Shown: piece after piece, positions 14,914 to 63,984 of the stretch
Layout of the letters: every line of letters begins with the position of its first letter
Numbering within the stretch: position 1 is the stretch's first letter
Origin: a virus
DNA length: 64,000 bases
IMG/VR virus record: IMGVR_UViG_3300013094_000036
Location: 1 to 64,000 of that record
Direction: 5' to 3' (one strand)
The notes under the pieces: model-generated
The model's input: the letters and a program-made list of their open reading frames with translations, nothing else
What the model was told of the DNA's origin: nothing
Databases searched by the model: none
Program-made: the position numbers and the translations under genes

Positions 14914-15007
14914 AGTGTGTAACCCTTATAAATACAGTAGAGGACAGTCCCGAGTAACCCCGGGGTTGGTGTTAGTTACCGCTAACACCTTACTCTACTA
15001 TTTATGA

Positions 15008-15330
15008 TTGTATGAAGGAAAAAGAACAATTGACTGGACGCGGGGGGCAGTGCCCCGCCCGCTCCACCATAAGAGCATAAATTTACTTTGGTATTCCGTG
15101 TAAATTTACTTTGGTATTCCGTGTAAATTTACTTTGGTATTGTGTGCTTATGATGGGGGTGACTAGGTTCGATCAGCTGTGGTAAGGGTTGAGGTAGGCA
15201 ATGAGTAAGATACGACTCACAATCAGTTCAAAAACTATAAATGCCAACGATAATGTTGCATTTGAGGAAACTGCCCTAGCGGCATAACCTCATTGGGTAT
15301 GGGTTCCACCTAGAAACAGAACGGACTCAA
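15008..15330 (+). ncRNA. ssrA: Circularly permuted (two-piece) tmRNA
   Basis: Acceptor piece ends CGCTCCACCA (15069) and has a GGCAGTG T-loop. Coding piece starts GGGGTG (about 15156). Tag (A)ANDNVAFEETALAA* at 15243..15287. Outer ends are approximate. Confidence 0.93.
15078..15141 (+). repeat. 23-nt tandem repeat (about 2.8 copies) in the tmRNA intervening segment
   Basis: taaatttactttggtattccgtg repeated. Confidence 0.9.
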
Positions 15331-15429
15331 TTTCACCTGTATATTTTGACTTTTTCAAATCTATATATTATCTTTTAAATGTGGCACATAATTTGCCACA
15401 ACACACACAAACACAGAAAGGAAAATATC

Positions 15430-23149: not shown

Positions 23150-23432
23150 TTTTTTCTGACATTTTATAATAAATATACTGTATGGTCGCATAAACAACAC
23201 AATAAATTGAATTATTGAGCAAAAAATCTTTTCACCTGTTTCTTTAATAACTCATATACCAAGAAACCAACGAGTCGAAACACACATTGCACCTATTATC
23301 GTAATTAAAAAAACTGTAATACAGTAAAGTAATAAGTTAAGCAGAAAATTAAACTTTCAAAATAGATTGATATAGTGTAAAATTTTATTTAGAGTTTTGT
23401 ATCTATATAAGGCTTGGGGGATATATACTTTT

Positions 23433-24188
23433 ATGACTTGGAATATTTTAGATATTGTAAAAGCTGGAAATTTTCTTCCTGATGTCAGGAAAATAACAAC
23501 TCATTGGTGCTCCAGTGATTCACAAGAACTATTTGAAAAAAATCTTAGAATTCAACCAGATGATTGGATATGGAGAACGCGGCAAGTTAAATATACACTT
23601 AATTCTGTAAGATATCGTTGTCCAGAATGGCAGGACATAGATTGGAAAAATTCTATTCTGATGTTCGGCTGCTCACAGGTATTCGGCATAGGAGTTGATG
23701 ACGCGGACACAATCCCAAATATTTTATCCACCCTTTTAGGAACTCCTGTTATAAATCTTGGTATATCCGGTTCTAGTATGCTTTTTTCTTTTCACAATGC
23801 GTTGCAATACCATGCTGGCAATCGGCCAACCCCATTGGGTGTAATAAATCTATGGACCTCGTGTTGTAGAACGACTACATATAAAAAAGATTGGATTGAA
23901 TATCACGGTCCATGGAATATAAAGCAAGAGGATATATTTGATTTATACAATATAGACGCTATAAACCCAAAAATTAATGCATTGCAAATAGAACGGTCTA
24001 GTCGCATAATATGGAAAGATACAAAATATTTCAGTGCATCATTCTTTGATGATACGGTTGATGCCTTGGGATGTGTTAATCTAACTCATACTTGTAAAAC
24101 ACTCAATGATTCCAGAGATGGCATCCACACAGGACCTGATAGTAATAAAAGAGTAGCAGAGTATCTAGCCAATAAAATAAATTATTAA
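23433..24188 (+). CDS. Hypothetical SGNH/GDSL-like protein
   Basis: FGCS..FGIG, NLG.SG.S and RDG.HTGP motifs. Confidence 0.6.
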   Translation: MTWNILDIVKAGNFLPDVRKITTHWCSSDSQELFEKNLRIQPDDWIWRTRQVKYTLNSVRYRCPEWQDIDWKNSILMFGCSQVFGIGVDDADTIPNILSTLLGTPVINLGISGSSMLFSFHNALQYHAGNRPTPLGVINLWTSCCRTTTYKKDWIEYHGPWNIKQEDIFDLYNIDAINPKINALQIERSSRIIWKDTKYFSASFFDDTVDALGCVNLTHTCKTLNDSRDGIHTGPDSNKRVAEYLANKINY

Positions 24189-24252
24189 CAATTTTGCAGA
24201 TATCTAGAAAAAAACCTTGACATTTAAAATAGAATACCCTATATTAATACTC

Positions 24253-24890
24253 AAGGGAAGCATACAGCAAACCAACAAATTGCTTTCGGTGCAAAACAAA
24301 GTCTTCCCGCCACTATGTTCTTTGAATTTTCTTATTGGGATTGTTACAGCAATACTATCAAATGCAAACAGGAGCACAACCTGTATAAATAAGGGCAAAA
24401 ACAATCCAGTTTTATATCAACGAAGACTGCAGCAAAATAAAATTTGCGATTGTTCTTCTATAACTAAGTGTTTTACACAATATCATATATTGTAAAAAAA
24501 CTGACCATGCTATGATTTGGTGCTAAAGTAGAGTAACTGGACTTTTAACCCAGCGCTGCTCGATTTAGCATCATTTTTTTTTAAATTTCATCACAATATT
24601 TTTTTCAAAAATTACATTGACAGCAGCCAAAAAATCAATTATTATCAAGTTAATGAAAAAATATATATCATATCGTGGAACGTTGCAATACCCCATTGGG
24701 TCAGGCAATATTCTTAAAATTTTATCTAGGTGACTTTCAAGGTTGGGTTCAGCAAACTTTTCGGATGAAACGACACCCCAAAAGGGTGTTGTGAGGATGG
24801 TTCAAACCCACCAACGGATTCTGAAATACAAAAAGAAGATTGAGTTCCGCAACACAAAATTGTTTTCATATAACAACCAAGTTCAATCTG
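24253..24890 (+). ncRNA. Array of five stem-closed small RNAs sharing a (TA/TG/TT)C(A/C)GCAA motif (putative Y-RNA-like), plus one anticodon hairpin
   Basis: Units at 24253-24309, 24337-24409, 24421-24459, 24739-24816 and 24836-24890, each with complementary 5'/3' ends. Promoters with -35 at 24217 and 24617. Confidence 0.65.
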
Positions 24891-24895
24891 TAAAC

Positions 24896-24921
24896 AAACG
24901 GCGACATTACTGTCGCCGTTT
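24896..24921. terminator. Hairpin terminator between the RNA array and the convergent HNH gene
   Basis: aaacggcgaca-ttac-tgtcgccgttt. Confidence 0.75.
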
Positions 24922-25866
24922 TCTTGTCTGTCCTCTTCTCCAAAGTGTTTGATCAAATGTGATGAAATCTTCAGGATTGATACGCTTGTTATCGATACCG
25001 TTTGTTATGAATATTTGTCCTGCTAATTTTGGAATAGGCGCAGTAGTCTTACCTCTATACCAAACAGTCAAATCATAGTTTTCAAGATCTTTCGGCCAAA
25101 TCCTCTTATTTTCAACTCCATTTGTTATGAATATTTGTCCGGTCAATCCTGCACTAACATTTTTTCGATGTTCGTCTGTTGCAGGTTTTCCTTTATTCCA
25201 AGTCGGCTTGCCTTTTTGTGCGTTGCTAATGTTTTGTCGATGTTCATCAGATAATTGCTTTCCTGCATTCAGTTCTCGCAAATGTTGTTTTGTTTCATCG
25301 CTATGAGTTTTTCCATAAAAACCGTTTTTCTCACCAACCAATTTTCCTCGCATTGCAATAGACTGTTTCAGTTTTTGCTCGTCTGATATAGTTCCACCTT
25401 TATTCCAATTTGGGACACTTTTTGGTTTTCGCATATTTACTGTGGTTGTTCTTGGTTTGCGCATTTTCTGTTTAGCTTCTTCAGTTTTTGGCAATCCTTT
25501 GGTGAATTTGGATAGTTGTTTTCGTAGAAATTCATATTGTTGGGCACAAATTTTGTATCGATCCCTGCCATTACTCCTCATCGTCATTTGCCAATTTGCA
25601 TATGCTAACTTTGATTTCATTTGATTGTCACCGACCATCTTGACCAATAGCATATGACAGATAAAATGTTCTTTTGCAGTGAGATCAACGAGGTTCTCGA
25701 GATCATGGTCGCCTCCTAATCGAAAGCATTTTGGGAGAATATGATGTGTTTCCGAATATCCGATTATTTCTTGTCTATTGATTGCATTCTCGATAATCTT
25801 TACATACCAGTTAGTGTATTTGTTTTGTAGACATAGAGAATGAATTTGTTGTATATAAATATTCAT
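24907..25866 (-). CDS. HNH homing endonuclease with NUMOD3 repeats
   Basis: ETHHILPKC..GG....NLV.LT.KEHFICH motif; FYGKTHSDETK. Confidence 0.92.
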   Translation of the reverse strand: MNIYIQQIHSLCLQNKYTNWYVKIIENAINRQEIIGYSETHHILPKCFRLGGDHDLENLVDLTAKEHFICHMLLVKMVGDNQMKSKLAYANWQMTMRSNGRDRYKICAQQYEFLRKQLSKFTKGLPKTEEAKQKMRKPRTTTVNMRKPKSVPNWNKGGTISDEQKLKQSIAMRGKLVGEKNGFYGKTHSDETKQHLRELNAGKQLSDEHRQNISNAQKGKPTWNKGKPATDEHRKNVSAGLTGQIFITNGVENKRIWPKDLENYDLTVWYRGKTTAPIPKLAGQIFITNGIDNKRINPEDFITFDQTLWRRGQTRKRRQ

Positions 25867-26020
25867 GCTGTTGCCCTCCTACGGCAATAGAGCGGTTGGG
25901 GACTTCCGATCCCGTGAATCGCAATCGATATATTTGTTCTAAATTATGTGTTGACAATCACCTGCACATAATCTATTATTAAGAATATAGAACAGCAATT
26001 CAATCGCAAAGAGGTAAAAA

Positions 26021-27439
26021 ATGTCACTCACTTTCGCCCAAGCGGCGCAGGCTACTCCTAATCTATCAACGACTGCAAATGGAATGGTAACATTGGACCA
26101 TAGTGGTGATCCCTCCACTACTCTGTTCTTTGCCGTTGGTTCTAGCCGAGGTAAGGATTTAACTGGTGCATTTGCCCGCGCATTCGCAGCAGAGCCAGAT
26201 GTTGCCATGAAGATTCTCTTCTGGGCACGAGATGCTCGTGAGGGTGCTGGAGAGCGTGAGATTTTCCGCCAGATTATTCGTAATCTAGAAGTCACGGCTC
26301 CTGATAGTCTAGCACGCAACATGTCACTGATTCCGCTGTATGGAAGATGGGATGACCTGCTGGTATTCAACTCACCAGCATTTAAAATTTCTGCATATAA
26401 TTTGATTACTCGTGCTTTACGCGCTGGTAATGGATTGGCAGCCAAATGGTGCCCACGAAAAGGACCTGTTGCAAATGAGATTCGTAAATATTTAAACTAT
26501 ACTCCTAAACAGTATCGTAAGATGTTGGTGGAACTTACCAGCGTTGTAGAAACCAAAATGTGTGCCAAGGAGTGGGATGAAATAAATTATAATCATGTGC
26601 CAAGTGTAGCAGCAAATCGCTATCAGAAAGCATTTAACAAGCACGATAGTGCTCGCTATAGCATGTGGAAAGAGGGCTTAAAGACTGGTGCCAGTAAAGT
26701 AAATGCCAGTGTGCTTTATCCATATGATGTAGTAAAGGCTGTAGAGTTTGGTGATCGTGATGTTGCTCTAGCACAATGGGAAGCTTTGCCAGACTATCTT
26801 GGTGATGATGCCATCTTACCCATGGTTGATATTAGTGGCAGCATGGGTTGCCCTGTTGGCGGACAAAAGGGTGTAGGGCTAACCTGCATGGATGTGGCTA
26901 TCAGCCTTGGACTTTATATCGCTGACAAGCAACAGGGTGCCTTCAAGGATATGTGGCTAACCTTCAGCAGGGACAGTCATATTGATGTTTTAAAAGGCAA
27001 TCTTCTACAGAAAATCAATCAGATTCGCAATAACGGTGGTTTGGACACCAACCTAGAAAGTGCTTTCCGAAGCATTCTAAAGGTCGCGGTTGATAATAAT
27101 GTTGCATCTGAGGATATGCCAAAATATCTGATAGTATTTTCTGATATGGAGTTCAATCCAGCCTATATGGGTGGCAATTCTGTTGGTGCATTTGAGATGG
27201 CACGGCAAATGTTTGCAGCAGCAAATTACTCATGTCCCAAAATTATCTGGTGGAACCTTAATGCCAGACCAGATGCAACTGGAAATGTGCCGGTTAGATT
27301 TGACCAAAATGGCACTGCACTTGTCTCTGGATTCTCTCCATCAATCATGAAGAGTATTCTTTCTGGCACTCAATTTACCCCCAGAGGTATTATGCTGGGA
27401 ACAGTTGGGTCAGAGAGATATAAGGCAATCACTGCTTGA
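26021..27439 (+). CDS. DUF2828 family protein (TROVE/Ro60-like helical region + vWA)
   Basis: T.NG, RDAREGAGER, YGRWDD, AAKWCPR, V.S.A, DISGSM MIDAS, TN, SDMEF, WNL and SGFSP motifs; own promoter at 25951. Confidence 0.88.
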   Translation: MSLTFAQAAQATPNLSTTANGMVTLDHSGDPSTTLFFAVGSSRGKDLTGAFARAFAAEPDVAMKILFWARDAREGAGEREIFRQIIRNLEVTAPDSLARNMSLIPLYGRWDDLLVFNSPAFKISAYNLITRALRAGNGLAAKWCPRKGPVANEIRKYLNYTPKQYRKMLVELTSVVETKMCAKEWDEINYNHVPSVAANRYQKAFNKHDSARYSMWKEGLKTGASKVNASVLYPYDVVKAVEFGDRDVALAQWEALPDYLGDDAILPMVDISGSMGCPVGGQKGVGLTCMDVAISLGLYIADKQQGAFKDMWLTFSRDSHIDVLKGNLLQKINQIRNNGGLDTNLESAFRSILKVAVDNNVASEDMPKYLIVFSDMEFNPAYMGGNSVGAFEMARQMFAAANYSCPKIIWWNLNARPDATGNVPVRFDQNGTALVSGFSPSIMKSILSGTQFTPRGIMLGTVGSERYKAITA

Positions 27440-27492
27440 TCGATTTTATCCACAAGGATGGTGTATTAGCCATCCTTGTCAAAATTAAATAA

Positions 27493-27546
27493 GATATTCA
27501 GTGATTTTAGTAGATAAAAAGAATTTATAAAAAATCACTGAATATC
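27493..27546. repeat. 16-bp inverted repeat
   Basis: gatattcagtgatttt ... aaaatcactgaatatc. Confidence 0.7.
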
Positions 27547-27651: not shown

Positions 27652-28086
27652 ATGGATATGCGTGCAATCATAAACCTTTTAGAGAGTTATAAAAAGGGCG
27701 ATAAAATTGGTCGCTGGGCTTTTATCTATCTAGAACCAAAGAAAACAACTGGTGAAACCTATAACCAATTTGCACAATGTAGCACATGTGACCTGTTTCT
27801 CCCTGGAAAAAAACGCTGTGGTATTTTTGGCAAAAATGATGTAGTTGTTGCCAATGCCAGTTGTGGACTGTATATTCAAGGACAACCACATGACGATCAG
27901 CCTATTCAAGATGTTGTAACACCAGATGAGGCCGGTTATGTTATAGGTCAAGTACGGTGCGAAAATTGCAGTTGGTATAAAAAAGGCAAATGTGAACTTT
28001 TTGCAATGTTAGATGATAAAATGTCTGACACATTTAAACTTGGTGCAGATGTTGACCCCAAAGGATGCTGCAACGCATGGAGTTGA
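27652..28086 (+). CDS. Cys-rich protein with two HiPIP-like repeats
   Basis: CSTC..C...CGLY and CENC..C...GCCNAW. Confidence 0.55.
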   Translation: MDMRAIINLLESYKKGDKIGRWAFIYLEPKKTTGETYNQFAQCSTCDLFLPGKKRCGIFGKNDVVVANASCGLYIQGQPHDDQPIQDVVTPDEAGYVIGQVRCENCSWYKKGKCELFAMLDDKMSDTFKLGADVDPKGCCNAWS

Positions 28087-61443: not shown

Positions 61444-61529
61444 GAGGGGGCGCCAGAGTTGGAGAGCTGGAGCAGACTGTAAATCTGCCGCTTATTGCTG
61501 AGTGTGTTCGAATCACACCCCCCTCACCA
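61444..61529 (+). tRNA. tRNA-Tyr(GUA)
   Basis: Cloverleaf with long variable arm and CCA. Confidence 0.95.
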
Positions 61530-61540
61530 ACATAAGATAA

Positions 61541-61615
61541 CAGGGCGTAGCTCAGAAGGAGAGTGCTAGTTTTGGAAACTAGAGGCCGGGATTGCAAAAC
61601 TCCCCGCCCTGACCA
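61541..61615 (+). tRNA. tRNA-Pro(UGG)
   Basis: ctagt-TTTGGAA-actag, CCA; T-loop TGCAAAA. Confidence 0.9.
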
Positions 61616-61630
61616 GATAAAATAATATAT

Positions 61631-61705
61631 GGGTCTAAAGTGTTGTTGGGGGCACGCGGGATTTGCATTCCCGAAGGCGGGATTCAAGCTCCCGTAGATC
61701 CACCA
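61631..61705 (+). tRNA. tRNA-Ala(UGC)
   Basis: G3:U70 pair, TTTGCAT loop, CCA. Confidence 0.9.
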
Positions 61706-61799
61706 CTATTTTGGGTAATTTTCAATGCGTTGTAGTAATTCTTCCAGTGTCATTCTTGAAGTTTTTCTTGCAAAATTTTCTTCCCAACTAATCAATTAT

Positions 61800-61873
61800 G
61801 CCTCGTTCGTCCAATGGCAGGGCCGCATCTTTACACGGTGCAGACGGCAGTTCGATTCTGTCACGAGGTACCA
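61800..61873 (+). tRNA. tRNA-Val(UAC)
   Basis: gcatc-TTTACAC-ggtgc, TTCGATT T-loop, CCA. Confidence 0.92.
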
Positions 61874-61899
61874 ACGATTATTTTGGTATAAATAACTGC

Positions 61900-62460
61900 A
61901 TGAAAATTGCTATAACAGGTCATACTAGTGGTATCGGTATTGCAACATATAATCTACTGCAAGAACACAATCATATCGTACAAGGGTTCAGTAGATCTAA
62001 TGGGTTTGATCTAACTAATCAAGCAGAACGAACCAGTATGTATCAAATTCTTAAAAATGAACAATTTGACTGTTTGATAAACAATGCATATCCTTATCAA
62101 TCCGCACATGGCACCAACGGGTTTATGCAAACAGCAATATTAAATGATGTTTGGAAAATCTGGCGTTCTGATCCTGGAAAAACTATAATAACCATTGGTA
62201 GTTTAGGAGCAGACCATGTAAAAAACCAGTATATGCCATATGCTATTCATAAAAAATCAATTGACGATACTGCAAAACAATTGAGATTGGCTTGCCAATA
62301 TCCACAAGTCACTGTTATCAAACCTAGCTGGGTAGACACACCTGCTGTCAAGCAGTTCGATGGCAATAAATGCACAGCCCAACAGGTGGCAGAGATAATT
62401 CTTTGGATTTTAAACTGCCAAGTTAGAATTTTAGATATAACTTTTGAAAAGCGTGTTTAA
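61900..62460 (+). CDS. Short-chain dehydrogenase/reductase
   Basis: ITGHTSGIG, INNA, Y...K; TATAAATA upstream. Confidence 0.88.
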   Translation: MKIAITGHTSGIGIATYNLLQEHNHIVQGFSRSNGFDLTNQAERTSMYQILKNEQFDCLINNAYPYQSAHGTNGFMQTAILNDVWKIWRSDPGKTIITIGSLGADHVKNQYMPYAIHKKSIDDTAKQLRLACQYPQVTVIKPSWVDTPAVKQFDGNKCTAQQVAEIILWILNCQVRILDITFEKRV

Positions 62461-62560
62461 ATCAATGATATGAACCAGTTGTTGTTTATGTAGATAGACG
62501 GCAACGACATCAAATAATTGCTCTTGTGGCCTAACTGGATAGAGCGATAGATTAACAAAT

Positions 62561-62639
62561 GCACCTGTATCCCTCTCCGCTACGAACGGAGCGAAAGGTA
62601 ATTGGAATCATACAGGTTCAACTCCTGTCAGGTGCTCCA
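62561..62639 (+). tRNA. Atypical D-armless tRNA-Arg(ACG)-like RNA
   Basis: Acceptor gcacctg/caggtgc+TCCA, ctccg-CTACGAA-cggag, normal T arm, no D arm. Confidence 0.7.
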
Positions 62640-62670
62640 ATTTTTTGATTATGGTGATCAAATCGCCATT

Positions 62671-62744
62671 GCTCCTATAGTATAAAAGCAGAACAAGGCT
62701 TTGGTAAAGCCTGGACGCAGGGGCGATACCTGCTAGGAGCACCA
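62671..62744 (+). tRNA. tRNA-Thr(GGU)
   Basis: aggct-TTGGTAA-agcct, CCA; T-loop GGCGATA. Confidence 0.88.
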
Positions 62745-62752
62745 TAATTTAA

Positions 62753-62830
62753 TGCGGAGTAGACTGGAGGTGGCCCCAGCATGGTCTCATACGCCATTGA
62801 CGCACGTTCAACTCGTGCCTCTCGCAACCA
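62753..62830 (+). tRNA. tRNA-Met(CAU), initiator-like 5' end
   Basis: atggt-CTCATAC-gccat, TTCAACT T-loop, CCA. Confidence 0.8.
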
Positions 62831-62877
62831 AAAAATAACAACGATTACTGCGATTGAAACCAAAATAACTGTGATAT

Positions 62878-63905
62878 GTTCCGTTGCCAGAGATAGTTCA
62901 ATGGTATATCTGCTCAAACATAGTAATCCGTTTCATTAACTCTTCTAATGTTATAGAAGATTTTGAATGTTTGTTTTGATTTGTTCGATGCGGAATGATT
63001 CGGCAATTTGCTGGATGTGCAAGTATTTTTGGATCAACACCATTTTTAAATCCATCAGAAACAGAATATAAGTGATCGCGAGAACAACCTTCTAAATTTT
63101 TTTTCTGTTAGCTGCTGAATACCAACCATATTGTTTGATAAGTGCAGATGCATCCATAAACCAGTCTGCATAATCTGTTATACAGAAAGTGAACCTTGTT
63201 TGGTATCTATATAAACTTTTGTTATCTATAGTATCTGGATGTATAGTTTTAATAGTTTTTGAATACCATATTTTTCCGGTTATTTTGCACTTGCATAGAT
63301 ATACTCGAGTGTATGGGCCAACTATTTGTGATTTGAAAAGTTTTTTGGCAATATATTTTGGATTTTTACTCTCGTGAGTTGGCCTAGTAGCACGCCCTTT
63401 CAAAGTTTCAGATCGTTTCTTTTTTGAAATTTCTGATTGAGGACCACGTTGTTTGTTATTAAACTTTGCTGCACATGACTGCGTACAAAATTTGTTTTTG
63501 TTTTCATGTTGTTCATATGAAAGTGCCGATTTGCAGTTCAAACACAAATTTGGATTTTCTAAGTATTTGGAGATTATTTTTTGTTTTTCCTTTAAGAGTT
63601 TTTCGGAAAGGGCTTTTCCTCGTCCTAAACCAGAACACCTAAAGTTACAAAATTTTGGATTAATTGTTGGCTTGCCACATGCAGCACATGGTTTTTCTTT
63701 TAGAGTAGATGATTTTTTATAAATATCATTAGACATTGTCTTTTCCTTATAGTATAATAAGACTGTGTTTAGAGATACAAGATGCGTCAACATCTTGTAT
63801 CTCGTTTATTTAGTTAATTTGATCCAGTGACCAGAGATAGTAATGGCCCCGGCTGCAACCCGGAAAATCGGATTAACGAGTATGCAAGCGACCCACGGAA
63901 CTCCA
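62878..63905 (+). pseudogene. tRNA-Cys(GCA) interrupted by the HNH gene
   Basis: GTTCCGT (62878) is complementary to ACGGAAC (63895)+TCCA; anticodon loop CTGCAAC. Confidence 0.65.
62898..63736 (-). CDS. HNH endonuclease, frameshifted at an A8 run
   Basis: Zinc-finger-like N part stops at 63092. The -1 frame continues LEGCSRDH..DGF..HPANC..N..K to a stop at 62898. Confidence 0.8.
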
Positions 63906-63911
63906 AAAAAT

Positions 63912-63984
63912 GGACTGTTAGCTCAGTGGCCAGAGCAGGGAGCTTTTAACTCTCGGGTCCTCGGTTCAAATCCGAGACAGTCCT
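63912..63984 (+). tRNA. tRNA-Lys(UUU)
   Basis: Cloverleaf, CTTTTAA loop, no encoded CCA. Confidence 0.93.

What the first reader, a model, noticed from the sequence alone, without database searches (positions are those of the whole stretch)
24217..27439. Candidate new system: array of Y-RNA-like small RNAs carrying anticodon-like loops beside a Ro60-like DUF2828 gene
Seen: after a sigma70 promoter there are five non-coding units with the same layout: a 5' stem strand, a CAGCAA/CCGCAA motif, a variable interior, then the complementary 3' strand. Unit 1: gggaag-caTACAGCAA..cttccc (24255-24308). Unit 2: ggattgt-TACAGCAA..acaatcc (24338-24407). Unit 3: gaaga-cTGCAGCAA..tcttc (24422-24458). Unit 4: gttgg-gTTCAGCAA..ccaac (24742-24815). 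Unit 5: agattga-gTTCCGCAA..tcaatct (24837-24889). Stem sequences differ but pairing is kept. Interiors hold 7-nt-loop hairpins shaped like anticodon arms: ttgc-TTTCGGT-gcaa (UCG), acagg-AGCACAA-cctgt (CAC) and ttgtt-TTCATAT-aacaa (CAU). Apart from one inserted HNH gene, the next gene is DUF2828, with a helical region plus vWA MIDAS, an architecture like Ro60/TROVE. Known: Ro60/Rsr binds the terminal stem of Y RNAs, and bacterial YrlA RNAs mimic tRNA. Inference: a phage RNP in which one ring protein loads a set of RNAs displaying different anticodon loops, as decoys or adaptors against anticodon nucleases or for tRNA repair.
Basis: partly seen in the sequence, partly recalled or inferred. Interest (0 to 1): 0.9.

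Follow-up and report, generated by a model that had tools for sequence, protein, structure and literature searches.

The report
Phage Ro60-like protein with partner RNAs
A freshwater phage carries a row of small folded RNAs that share one conserved "handle", next to a gene for a ring-shaped protein resembling the RNA-surveillance protein Ro60. The pairing recurs in many other phages, so it probably marks an undescribed branch of Ro60/Y-RNA particles.

Summary
Window 24217-24921 is non-coding. It has two strong sigma70-type promoters, two terminators and five units built as terminal stem + YNCMGCAA + variable interior. Units 1, 2 and 5 are solid. Unit 3 is weak, and unit 4's stem is damaged in the orthologous register.

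The DUF2828/DUF7788 protein (26021-27439) is predicted to fold like Ro60 over its full length (Z 21.5 to Xenopus Ro60).

I built a covariance model from 22 units. It finds further units beside DUF2828 genes in untrained loci. In 80 loci from prokaryote assemblies, 53 of 53 hits at E<=0.05 lie on the gene's strand. Of these, 48 are upstream (median 188 nt) and 5 are just downstream.

Close relatives add permuted tRNA-like (YrlA-type) units with the same handle.

Contigs from four lake metatranscriptome libraries match 24261-24628.

Best reading: these are Y-RNA-like partners of a divergent Ro60. Ro60/Y-RNA pairs in phages are known. My searches found neither this handle nor DUF2828 described in that role.

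This scan has noted the same system before on other DNA.

The parts
24217..24245 (+). Promoter P1 (TTGACA-17-TATATT), drives RNA cluster 1
   Evidence: 11 of 12 matches; unit 1 starts 10 nt after the -10 hexamer
24255..24309 (+). Unit 1: handle RNA (stem GGGAAG/CTTCCC, CAUACAGCAA)
   Evidence: 37.3 bits; orthologues in L003 2841-2894 and L004 1889-1942
24337..24409 (+). Unit 2: handle RNA (stem GGAUUGU/ACAAUCC, UACAGCAA) with a conserved inner hairpin ACAGG-AGCACAA-CCUGU
   Evidence: 20.6 bits, E 6e-4, not in training; one search shows compensatory changes in the terminal stem and the inner hairpin against L003/L004
24421..24459 (+). Unit 3: short, weak handle unit (5-6 bp stem, CUGCAGCAA)
   Evidence: 11.8 bits, E 0.12; z -2.12. 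In L003/L004 the unit that follows unit 2 is about 240 nt long; that the two correspond is my reading of their order
24518..24590 (+). Stable hairpin with loop CUUUUAA, then U9: terminator of cluster 1 and a conserved module
   Evidence: -22.5 kcal/mol, z -4.77, 0 of 200 shuffles. The loop equals that of tRNA-Lys at 63912. Orthologous hairpins lie inside the long unit of L003/L004
24617..24645 (+). Promoter P2 (TTGACA-17-TATTAT), drives RNA cluster 2
   Evidence: 11 of 12 matches
24740..24822 (+). Unit 4: handle (GUUCAGCAA) + conserved hairpin + T-arm-like hairpin (GGUUCAAACC); terminal stem weakened in this phage
   Evidence: The L004 orthologue scores 20.5 bits; the window copy gives only a partial hit
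24837..24890 (+). Unit 5: best handle RNA (AGAUUGAGUU CCGCAA ... AGUUCAAUCU G)
   Evidence: 45.6 bits. Compensatory stem changes against L003 (AGGUUGG/CCAACCU) and L004 (AGGUUGA/UCAACCU)
24896..24921 (.). 11-bp terminator hairpin after cluster 2; it overlaps the 3' end of the opposite-strand endonuclease gene
24907..25866 (-). Inserted homing endonuclease gene (NUMOD3; phrog_655, HNH-type)
   Evidence: absent between unit 5 and the gene in L003/L004
25951..25979 (+). Promoter P3 in front of the DUF2828 gene
   Evidence: 11 of 12 matches
26021..27439 (+). DUF2828/DUF7788 protein, 472 aa: predicted Ro60 fold (helical-repeat ring + vWA with DxSxS)
   Evidence: (phrog_850 'RNA-binding protein')

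Best explanation
The window holds a phage version of a Ro60/Y-RNA ribonucleoprotein, built from a divergent Ro60 (Pfam DUF2828 + DUF7788) and its own family of small RNAs.

Transcription: two sigma70-type promoters transcribe two short non-coding units, each ending in a terminator. Each unit holds two or three modules.

The handle: every module is closed by a 6-8 bp helix between its 5' and 3' ends. The helix usually reads AGG....CCUG. A nearly invariant C-A-G-C-A-A follows 1-3 nt after the 5' strand.

Inferred by analogy with Ro60 on Y RNA, and not shown here: the ring protein binds the handle, and the variable interior is the working part. In this phage the interiors are a T-arm-like hairpin and an anticodon-arm-like hairpin. 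In close relatives they are whole permuted tRNA-like domains of the YrlA kind. The interior is assumed to tether or gate other factors, such as host exoribonucleases (PNPase) or tRNA-handling enzymes, so that the phage can steer RNA decay or RNA quality control during infection.

Shown: the RNAs' layout, their conservation, their linkage to the gene, the protein's predicted fold, and their presence in RNA libraries.

Inferred: binding, processing into single units, and the downstream function.
For: 1. Layout and signals in the window.

2. Homology. The array is 75-83% identical in L003-L005 and sits directly before the gene there. Terminal stems differ but still pair. Unit 5 has AGAUUGA/UCAAUCU against AGGUUGG/CCAACCU. 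Units 2 and 4 behave the same way.

3. Model R1 was built from 22 units of alignment A1. On A1, 83.8% of cells pair, and 50 cells changed on both sides against 17.4+-3.3 in shuffles (0 of 500) and 8-16 when slid.

4. R1 over the window plus 34 loci (412 kb, both strands): 45 of 45 hits at E<=0.031 lie on the gene's strand. Of these, 23 are not training sequences. They include hits 20-30 nt after the stop codon in L008, L010-L012, L014-L016, L020, L022, L023, L032 and L035.

5. Independent set of 80 loci from prokaryote assemblies, 32-47% protein identity (615 kb): 53 of 53 hits at E<=0.05 lie on the gene's strand. 48 are upstream (median 188 nt, 42 within 600 nt) and 5 are 38-538 nt downstream, in 36 of 80 loci. 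At E<=5, 86 of 87 lie on the gene's strand, in 52 of 80 loci. One locus, L050, is the same contig as training locus L028. Without it the count is 51 hits in 35 of 79 loci.

6. Protein. AlphaFold model pLDDT 83.6, pTM 0.80. The top 13 Foldseek hits are all Ro60/TROVE (E 3.7e-9 to 7e-6). VIA gives Z 21.5, rmsd 3.8 A over 401 residues to 1yvp_A. The ten best entries are all Ro60, and the next are vWA-only at Z<=11.3. D270, S272, S274, T343 and D375 are invariant in 22 homologues.

7. tRNA mimicry. L003 4513-4629 reads handle, T-arm, acceptor 3' strand + CCA, loop, acceptor 5' strand, D-arm, handle. Rfam YrlA matches it at 36 bits, E 1.2e-5, model positions 25-83. Similar units are in L004, L034 and L025.

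8. Contigs of four lake metatranscriptome libraries (four studies) match 24261-24533, 24265-24527, 24265-24522 and 24334-24628 without a mismatch. Three of them begin 9-13 nt after the expected start.

9. Precedent. Ro60 genes of bacteria and phages have Y RNAs within 4 kb on the same strand (Chen 2014, PMC4201824, sections 5 and 6 read). Thermus phage phiLo Ro60 binds two upstream Y-like RNAs and host PNPase (Hu 2025, PMC12135203, abstract and passages).
Against: - No binding data exist for any DUF2828 protein.
- The handle motif is not the GNCGAAN0-1G/CGAA motif of known bacterial and phage Y RNAs.
- Neither the Rfam YrlA model nor any other Rfam family reaches its threshold on the window's units.
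- Pfam and sequence searches do not link the protein to TROVE (searches give E 0.83 at the vWA motif only). The Ro60 assignment therefore rests on a predicted structure.
- Linkage is not absolute. 28 of 80 independent loci had no R1 hit at E<=5. In Ochrobactrum phage vB_OspM_OC the four hits lie 50 kb from the gene, inside the tRNA array.
- Covariation counts are inflated by selection. I picked A1 units for having a stem, and a covariance model prefers hits that pair (A4).
- The RNA-library contigs span units 1-3 as one piece. They cannot show discrete small RNAs, strand or true ends, and DNA can be present in such libraries.
- Units 3 and 4 of this window are weak copies.
Confidence: 0.72

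Rival explanations
1. The handle RNAs are real small RNAs, but their direct partner is another protein: a host RNA-binding protein, another phage protein, or tRNA-processing enzymes. On this view DUF2828 is only a pathway neighbour.
For: - In the Ochrobactrum phage and in L013's phage the best hits lie 40-50 kb from the gene, in the first case in the tRNA cluster.
- L025 and L009 mix the units with tRNA genes.
- Dictyostelid Class I RNAs have a similar layout, and the one tested binds an RRM protein directly (Kjellin 2021, PMC7919456, passages).
- A conserved Cys-rich 144-aa protein also travels with the locus.
Against: - Hits cluster within a few hundred nt of the gene, on its strand, across 32-77% protein identity and in very different genomes.
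- The gene's product has the fold of a protein whose known role is to bind just such stem-closed RNAs.
Confidence: 0.12
2. One reading: the array displays different anticodon loops as decoys or adaptors against anticodon nucleases, or for tRNA repair.
For: - Hairpin 24518-24573 ends in CUUUUAA, the loop of the phage's own tRNA-Lys(UUU).
- Its orthologues end in UUUUGGA and CUUUGAA.
- The 7-nt loop of unit 1 keeps U at position 2 and a purine at position 6 in three relatives.
- L025 encloses a whole tRNA with anticodon UUA in a handle.
Against:
- Most units in 65 untrained hits have A-rich, unstructured interiors.
- The conserved tRNA-like parts are T-arm, D-arm and acceptor stem. In the permuted units the handle stands where the anticodon arm would be.
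- I annotated no nuclease or RNA-repair gene next to the array.
Confidence: 0.1
3. The units are cis-acting leader elements (attenuators or autoregulatory binding sites) that control expression of the DUF2828 gene. On this view they are not trans-acting RNAs.
For: In L003/L004 and many other loci the last unit ends 20-60 nt before the start codon, on the same strand, with no terminator between.
Against: - In the window a terminator, an opposite-strand gene and a separate promoter lie between the array and the gene.
- In a whole clade the units lie after the stop codon.
- In some phages they lie tens of kb away.
- Several units have their own promoters.
Confidence: 0.04
4. The units are decaying remnants of tRNA genes or chance hairpins, and have no function.
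For: Units 3 and 4 of the window are weak. One permuted unit in L004 is split by an insertion.
Against: - The motif is nearly invariant in untrained hits: C 65/65, G 65/65, A 65/65 at three positions, and the final G 64/65.
- Stem changes are compensatory between orthologues.
- Strand and position bias is strict.
- The stretch is present in RNA libraries.
Confidence: 0.02

Closest known systems
Bacterial and phage Ro60 (Rsr) with YrlA/YrlB Y RNAs (Chen et al. 2014, PMC4201824; Rfam RF02553)
   Same: - Ring protein of the Ro60 fold with a vWA domain.
- Small RNAs encoded within a few kb on the same strand.
- RNA ends pair in a terminal stem, with a conserved motif near the 5' end.
- The interior can be a permuted tRNA-like domain (T-arm, closed acceptor stem, D-arm).
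- More than one RNA per locus.
   Different: - The protein is not recognised as TROVE by Pfam or by sequence search.
- The motif is YACAGCAA/GUUCMGCAA, not GNCGAAN0-1G.
- Arrays hold up to five or more units, many with short unstructured interiors.
- None of the window's units reaches any YrlA score.
- Chen et al. searched only genomes with a TROVE-annotated protein.
Thermus phage phiLo Ro60 with Yrl1/Yrl2 (Hu et al. 2025, PMC12135203; PDB 9KOP, 9L5Y)
   Same: - A phage-encoded Ro60-fold protein with two Y-like RNA genes upstream.
- It is the best Foldseek hit of the model (E 3.7e-9; Z 18.2).
- It gives the precedent for a phage RNP that binds host PNPase and dampens it.
   Different: - It is a canonical TROVE protein.
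- Its RNAs were found through CGAA motifs.
- It has no array and no CAGCAA handle.
Dictyostelid Class I RNAs (Kjellin et al. 2021, PMC7919456; Rfam RF01414)
   Same: - About 60 nt long, with a short terminal stem that is conserved in structure and not in sequence.
- A conserved motif of about 11 nt sits right after the 5' strand, with C, C, A, A fixed at positions 6, 9, 10, 11. All five window units match these four positions.
- The interior is variable.
- The RNA ends in CUGU (unit 5 ends ..CUGU).
- There are many copies per genome.
   Different: - They are eukaryotic, with the DUSE promoter.
- The paper found no such RNA outside Dictyostelia.
- The known binder is an RRM protein.
- RF01414 hits none of the window's units. 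It hits two units of L025 at only 23-24 bits against a threshold of 41.5.
- The fixed T at position 3 is met by 1 of 5 window units.

Membership tests
Ro60 / TROVE proteins | Helical-repeat ring followed by a C-terminal vWA domain (whole-chain fold) | tested here: met
   Predicted model only: pLDDT 83.6. Top 13 Foldseek hits are all Ro60. Z 21.5, rmsd 3.8 A, 401 residues aligned to 1yvp_A; the ten best entries are all Ro60.
Ro60 / TROVE proteins | MIDAS-type DxSxS...T...D motif in the vWA domain | tested here: met
   D270, S272, S274, T343 and D375 are invariant in 22 homologues. The DVSGSM stretch aligns with that of a TROVE chain. That these residues form the MIDAS site is my reading.
Ro60 / TROVE proteins | Match to the TROVE sequence family | tested here: not met
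   Pfam lists only DUF7788 and DUF2828 at E<=0.01. phmmer against PDB finds nothing. A profile of 22 homologues reaches TROVE chains only at E 0.83.
Ro60 / TROVE proteins | Binds Y RNA on the outer surface and misfolded RNA in the hole | not testable with these tools
   No RNA-protein modelling or experiment was available.
Y RNAs of the YrlA type (RF02553) | 5' and 3' ends pair in a terminal stem | tested here: met
   with the caveat that hits were selected for pairing.
Y RNAs of the YrlA type (RF02553) | GNCGAAN0-1G motif near the 5' end (Chen 2014) | tested here: not met
   A different motif stands at that place: C-A-G-C-A-A, invariant or nearly so in 65 untrained hits. The window's units read CAGCAA or CCGCAA.
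Y RNAs of the YrlA type (RF02553) | Permuted tRNA-like domain (T-arm, closed acceptor stem, D-arm) | tested here: not met
   No unit of the window's own contig is hit, and unit 4 has only a T-arm-like hairpin. The feature is met below threshold in relatives: L003 36 bits, L004 29 and 24.9 bits, L034 21.9 bits, against a threshold of 69. That search also rings in 13 of 14 control genomes.
Y RNAs of the YrlA type (RF02553) | Encoded within about 4 kb of the Ro60 gene on the same strand | tested here: met
   Window: 1.1-1.8 kb upstream, same strand. Other loci.
Dictyostelid Class I RNAs (RF01414) | Score over the family's Rfam threshold (41.5 bits) | tested here: not met
   None of the five units is among the 5 matches at E<=10 on the own contig. 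Two L025 units score 23.9 and 23.4 bits.
Dictyostelid Class I RNAs (RF01414) | About 60 nt, 6-bp terminal stem, motif with T3, C6, C9, A10, A11, end CUGU (Kjellin 2021) | tested here: inconclusive
   By reading: C6, C9, A10 and A11 are present in 5 of 5 units, and T3 in 1 of 5. Units 1 and 5 are 54-55 nt. Only unit 5 ends in CUGU. The paper's logo is a figure that I could not see.

The most novel reading that the evidence does not exclude
DUF2828 proteins and CAGCAA-handle RNAs form a second, old branch of the Ro60/Y-RNA particle. It runs through phages, giant viruses, bacteria and archaea. The abundant but unexplained Class I RNAs of social amoebae are its eukaryotic members. The handle is a universal docking site, and the interchangeable interiors (T-arms, anticodon arms, whole or permuted tRNA bodies) present tRNA-like baits to host enzymes or nucleases.
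Probability: 0.3. Interest if true: 0.88.

Novelty: new variant of a known kind. Interest (0 to 1): 0.72.

Why it matters
- Ro60/Y-RNA particles are a classic RNA-surveillance system, and their function in bacteria and phages is still only partly understood.
- This finding would give a large domain-of-unknown-function family (DUF2828/DUF7788) a concrete role as a Ro60-like RNA-binding ring. The family is common in phages and also annotated in eukaryotes.
- It would add a new, easily recognised family of partner RNAs that no RNA catalogue I could search lists for phages.
- It would show that these RNAs come in arrays with swappable, often tRNA-like, cargo. That makes the question "what do Y RNAs tether?" testable with natural variants.
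- It flags mis-annotation. In a cultured phage the RNA genes are annotated as tiny hypothetical proteins.

Tried and rejected
- Rfam at curated thresholds found only tmRNA and tRNAs in the window and only tRNAs in 14 related loci. At E<=10 the 14 matches in 24100-25000 were terminator-driven or noise.
- blastn of 23300-27500 against 50,697 phage records gave one 123-nt match inside the protein gene. No close relative is in that collection.
- My first descriptor (motif + any 6-bp partner within 300 nt) was useless as a test: 105 hits on the + strand and 95 on the - strand of the window. I dropped it.
- Folding the two whole transcripts gave weak z-scores (-0.96 and -2.15). Single units were also mostly unremarkable by energy, so energy alone does not support the units.
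- The MAFFT alignment of six permuted tRNA-like units (A3) was too poor in the D-arm and acceptor region for a model. I built none and used Rfam's YrlA model instead.
- YrlA and Class I models on the own contig hit none of the units.
- The Atlas search only returned the protein's own family.
- Read laying: no RNA-library contig lay on 23400-24221 or 25045-26040. Only low-depth pieces lay on the second cluster (one run) and on the protein gene. I laid no DNA run for comparison.
- Literature one search (motif letters + phage) returned only primer and macrophage papers. (the Sim et al. 2020 review) was not held.
- Searches behind 'not in print'.
- Supplements are closed. Chen 2014's Supplemental Tables S1/S2 (its list of phages) and Kjellin 2021's supplements may bear on whether any such RNA was listed before.
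- I did not use complex prediction (it takes no RNA), the search for homologous proteins or the search of protein representatives.

Full report
WHAT IS THERE. The window is part of a 72-kb, 38% G+C virus record. The record has T4-like genes (topoisomerase II, NUDIX), a permuted tmRNA and a tRNA cluster. Between the ORF ending at 24188 and the opposite-strand ORF 24907-25866 lies about 700 nt with no convincing ORF.

The region holds two of the three best sigma70-type promoter matches of the scanned stretch (24217-24245 and 24617-24645, 11 of 12 each). It also holds an 11-bp terminator at 24896-24921. A very stable hairpin at 24518-24573 is followed by nine U (z -4.77, 0 of 200 shuffles). So there are two non-coding transcription units, not one.

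CAGCAA is four times, and CCGCAA once, in 640 nt, where the contig's own rate predicts about 0.6 CAGCAA.

RELATIVES. The DUF2828 protein found 36 loci in viral contigs. L002 is the same phage (99%). L003, L004 and L005 (75-77% protein identity) keep the RNA region at 75-83% nucleotide identity. There unit 5 ends about 25 nt before the start codon. The homing endonuclease gene of the window (NUMOD3, phrog_655) is therefore an insertion.

The terminal stems differ between orthologues yet still pair. Unit 5 has AGAUUGA/UCAAUCU, AGGUUGG/CCAACCU and AGGUUGA/UCAACCU. Units 2 and 4 show compensatory changes in the terminal stem and in an inner hairpin.

L003 and L004 carry two or three further units, each behind its own TTGACA promoter. 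Their interior reads T-arm, acceptor 3' strand (+CCA), loop, acceptor 5' strand, D-arm. This is the permuted tRNA-like order of YrlA. Rfam's YrlA model matches L003 at 36 bits (E 1.2e-5, positions 25-83 of 114, threshold 69).

THE FAMILY AND ITS LINK TO THE GENE. Looser relatives show the same layout upstream of the gene. I aligned 22 short units (A1). The first seven pairs of the terminal helix covary. 83.8% of cells pair, and 50 cells changed on both sides, against 17.4+-3.3 in shuffles (0 of 500) and 8-16 when the partner is slid. The caveat is that I chose units because they had a stem.

I built model R1 from A1 and searched the window plus 34 loci. I left out L002, L005 and L024 as near-duplicates. 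The search covered 412 kb on both strands. It gave 66 hits at E<=10, 5 of them on the minus strand. All 45 hits at E<=0.031 were on the gene's strand and within about 2 kb of the gene. Of those, 23 were not training sequences. In the clade that has nothing upstream, the hit sits right after the stop codon and is followed by a second, roughly 260-nt unit.

For an independent test I took 80 loci from prokaryote assemblies (32-47% protein identity). All 53 hits at E<=0.05 lie on the gene's strand. 48 are upstream (median distance 188 nt, 42 within 600 nt) and 5 are downstream (38-538 nt), in 36 of 80 loci. At E<=5, 86 of 87 are on the gene's strand, in 52 of 80 loci. 28 loci had none, several of them cut at the gene. 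L050 is the same contig as training locus L028. Without it the count is 51 hits in 35 of 79 loci.

I then aligned 65 untrained hits from 47 sources (A4). They give the consensus AGG-NNNN-(N)UACAGCAA ... NNNN-CCUG. C, G and A of the motif are present in 65 of 65, and the final G in 64 of 65. 93.1% of cells pair, with 190 double changes against 54+-7 in shuffles. This is expected in part, because the model selects for pairing. The strand and position bias is the unbiased evidence.

Linkage is not absolute. In Ochrobactrum phage vB_OspM_OC, four hits (30-42 bits) lie at the end of the tRNA array, 50 kb from the gene on the same strand. They are annotated as tiny hypothetical ORFs.

THE PROTEIN. 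Pfam gives DUF7788 (2.7e-39) and DUF2828 (3.7e-28). PHROGs gives phrog_850, 'RNA-binding protein'. The GenBank record of the Ochrobactrum phage calls its homologue 'putative Ro sixty-related protein', by HHpred. Sequence searches against solved structures find nothing significant.

The AlphaFold model, built from 22 homologues, has pLDDT 83.6 and pTM 0.80. It matches Ro60 structures over nearly its full length. The top 13 Foldseek hits are all Ro60/TROVE. VIA gives Z 21.5 (rmsd 3.8 A, 401 residues) to Xenopus Ro60, 18.2 to Thermus phage phiLo Ro60 and 13.3 to Deinococcus Rsr. vWA-only matches follow at Z<=11.3. The DxSxS, T and D positions of the vWA domain are invariant.

EXPRESSION. Eight lake metatranscriptome runs hold parts of 24200-25000. 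In four of them, from four studies, contigs match 24261-24533, 24265-24527, 24265-24522 and 24334-24628 without a mismatch. Three of these begin 9-13 nt downstream of the start expected from P1. This shows presence in RNA libraries and hints at a 5' end. It shows neither strand, nor true ends, nor processing into single units.

ANTICODON LOOPS.
- The loop of unit 5 is not conserved. It is a 5-nt loop in L004 and there is no hairpin in L003.
- The hairpin of unit 2 is conserved, but its loop lacks U at the second position.
- The 4-bp stem and 7-nt loop of unit 1 persist in three close relatives, with varying middle letters.

The terminator hairpin at 24518-24573, noted separately in the scan, carries CUUUUAA, the loop of the phage's tRNA-Lys. 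Its orthologues lie inside a roughly 240-nt unit of L003/L004 and carry UUUUGGA and CUUUGAA. In the permuted units the handle takes the place of the anticodon arm. tRNA likeness is therefore real, but it is mostly T-arm, D-arm and acceptor stem. Display of anticodons is at best a minor theme.

COMPARISON WITH WHAT IS KNOWN. Chen et al. 2014 (sections 5 and 6 read) found YrlA-type RNAs within 4 kb and on the strand of TROVE-annotated Ro60 genes in 254 bacteria and 22 phages. Those RNAs have a GNCGAAN0-1G motif near the 5' end and a tRNA-like domain. Hu et al. 2025 (abstract and passages) showed that Thermus phage phiLo Ro60 binds two upstream Y-like RNAs found by their CGAA motif, and that the complex binds and dampens host PNPase. 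Iyer et al. 2021 (passages) note ROT/TROVE proteins in a few jumbo phages.

The present system works like these. It differs in the protein family, the handle motif and the array form. Full-text searches for DUF2828 (5 papers, none on this) and for Ro60/TROVE with phage and tRNA-like terms found no description of these RNAs.

Earlier notes of this scan pointed to the Class I RNAs of Dictyostelia. Kjellin et al. 2021 (passages) describe RNAs of about 60 nt with these features: a 6-bp terminal stem conserved in structure only, an 11-nt motif next to the 5' strand with T, C, C, A, A fixed at positions 3, 6, 9, 10, 11, and a CUGU end. The layout fits well. However, Rfam's RF01414 hits none of the window's units, and it hits only two units of L025 at 23-24 bits. 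I record a resemblance, not membership.

MECHANISM AND VERDICT. The most likely reading (0.72) is that the protein is a divergent Ro60 and that the stem plus CAGCAA handle is its docking site. The interiors would be adaptors or gates, as in Ro60-Y RNA-PNPase machines, used by the phage to steer host RNA decay or tRNA handling. Binding and function are inferred. The rivals are another protein partner (0.12), anticodon decoys as the specific role (0.10, not exclusive), cis-regulatory leaders (0.04) and junk (0.02).

The kind (phage Ro60/Y-RNA particle) is known. The protein branch, the handle and the array are a new variant.

The same system has been noted many times by this scan on other DNA. 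I tested its main claims here on this window and on independent loci.

Noticed in passing
L004:3597-4400: A permuted tRNA-like handle unit behind its own promoter is broken off inside its D-arm. The break is an insert of about 650-700 nt carrying an opposite-strand 238-aa ORF with a NUMOD3 motif. A D-arm-like stretch follows the insert. It may be a homing-endonuclease insertion into, or an intron within, the RNA gene.
   Followed up: partly
L025:4759-4852: A complete, non-permuted tRNA (ARAGORN: anticodon UUA, 'tRNA-Stop'; Rfam tRNA 55 bits) is enclosed by a handle (AGAAUACU ... AGUAUUCU, UUACAGCAA). The DUF2828 gene of this complete phage sits inside its tRNA array.
   Followed up: partly
L119 (MT028491.1 157017-157698, minus strand): Four strong handle-RNA hits (30-42 bits) lie at the end of the tRNA array of the cultured Ochrobactrum phage vB_OspM_OC. 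They overlap six annotated 'hypothetical protein' ORFs of about 30-93 codons, which are probably not genes.
   Followed up: partly
window 27652-28086; L004:2381-2812: A Cys-rich 144-aa protein (weak HIPIP-like Pfam hit, 68% identical between the two phages) travels with the locus. It lies downstream of the DUF2828 gene in the window and between the two RNA clusters in L003/L004.
   Followed up: partly
window 14972-15378: Phage-encoded permuted (two-piece, alphaproteobacterial type) tmRNA with tag ANDNVAFEETALAA. This hints at an alphaproteobacterial host.
   Followed up: no
window 61444-63984: The tRNA cluster is called differently by the two programs. ARAGORN gives Tyr, Ala, Val, Leu and Lys. 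Rfam gives tRNAs at 61541-61612, 62561-62636 and 62671-62741 that ARAGORN does not list, and misses 61444 and 61631.
   Followed up: no
window 24652-24740: Between promoter P2 and unit 4 lies an 85-nt stretch with a predicted hairpin (GGAACGUUGC...GCAAUAUUCU) and no handle. No counterpart is seen in L003/L004.
   Followed up: no
L008, L010-L012, L014, L015, L032, L035 (about 60-330 nt after the DUF2828 stop): In this clade the short unit is followed by a second unit of about 260 nt (GGAUCGrUACAGCAAAAAGUA ... CGAUCC). Its interior is conserved and its structure is unknown.
   Followed up: no
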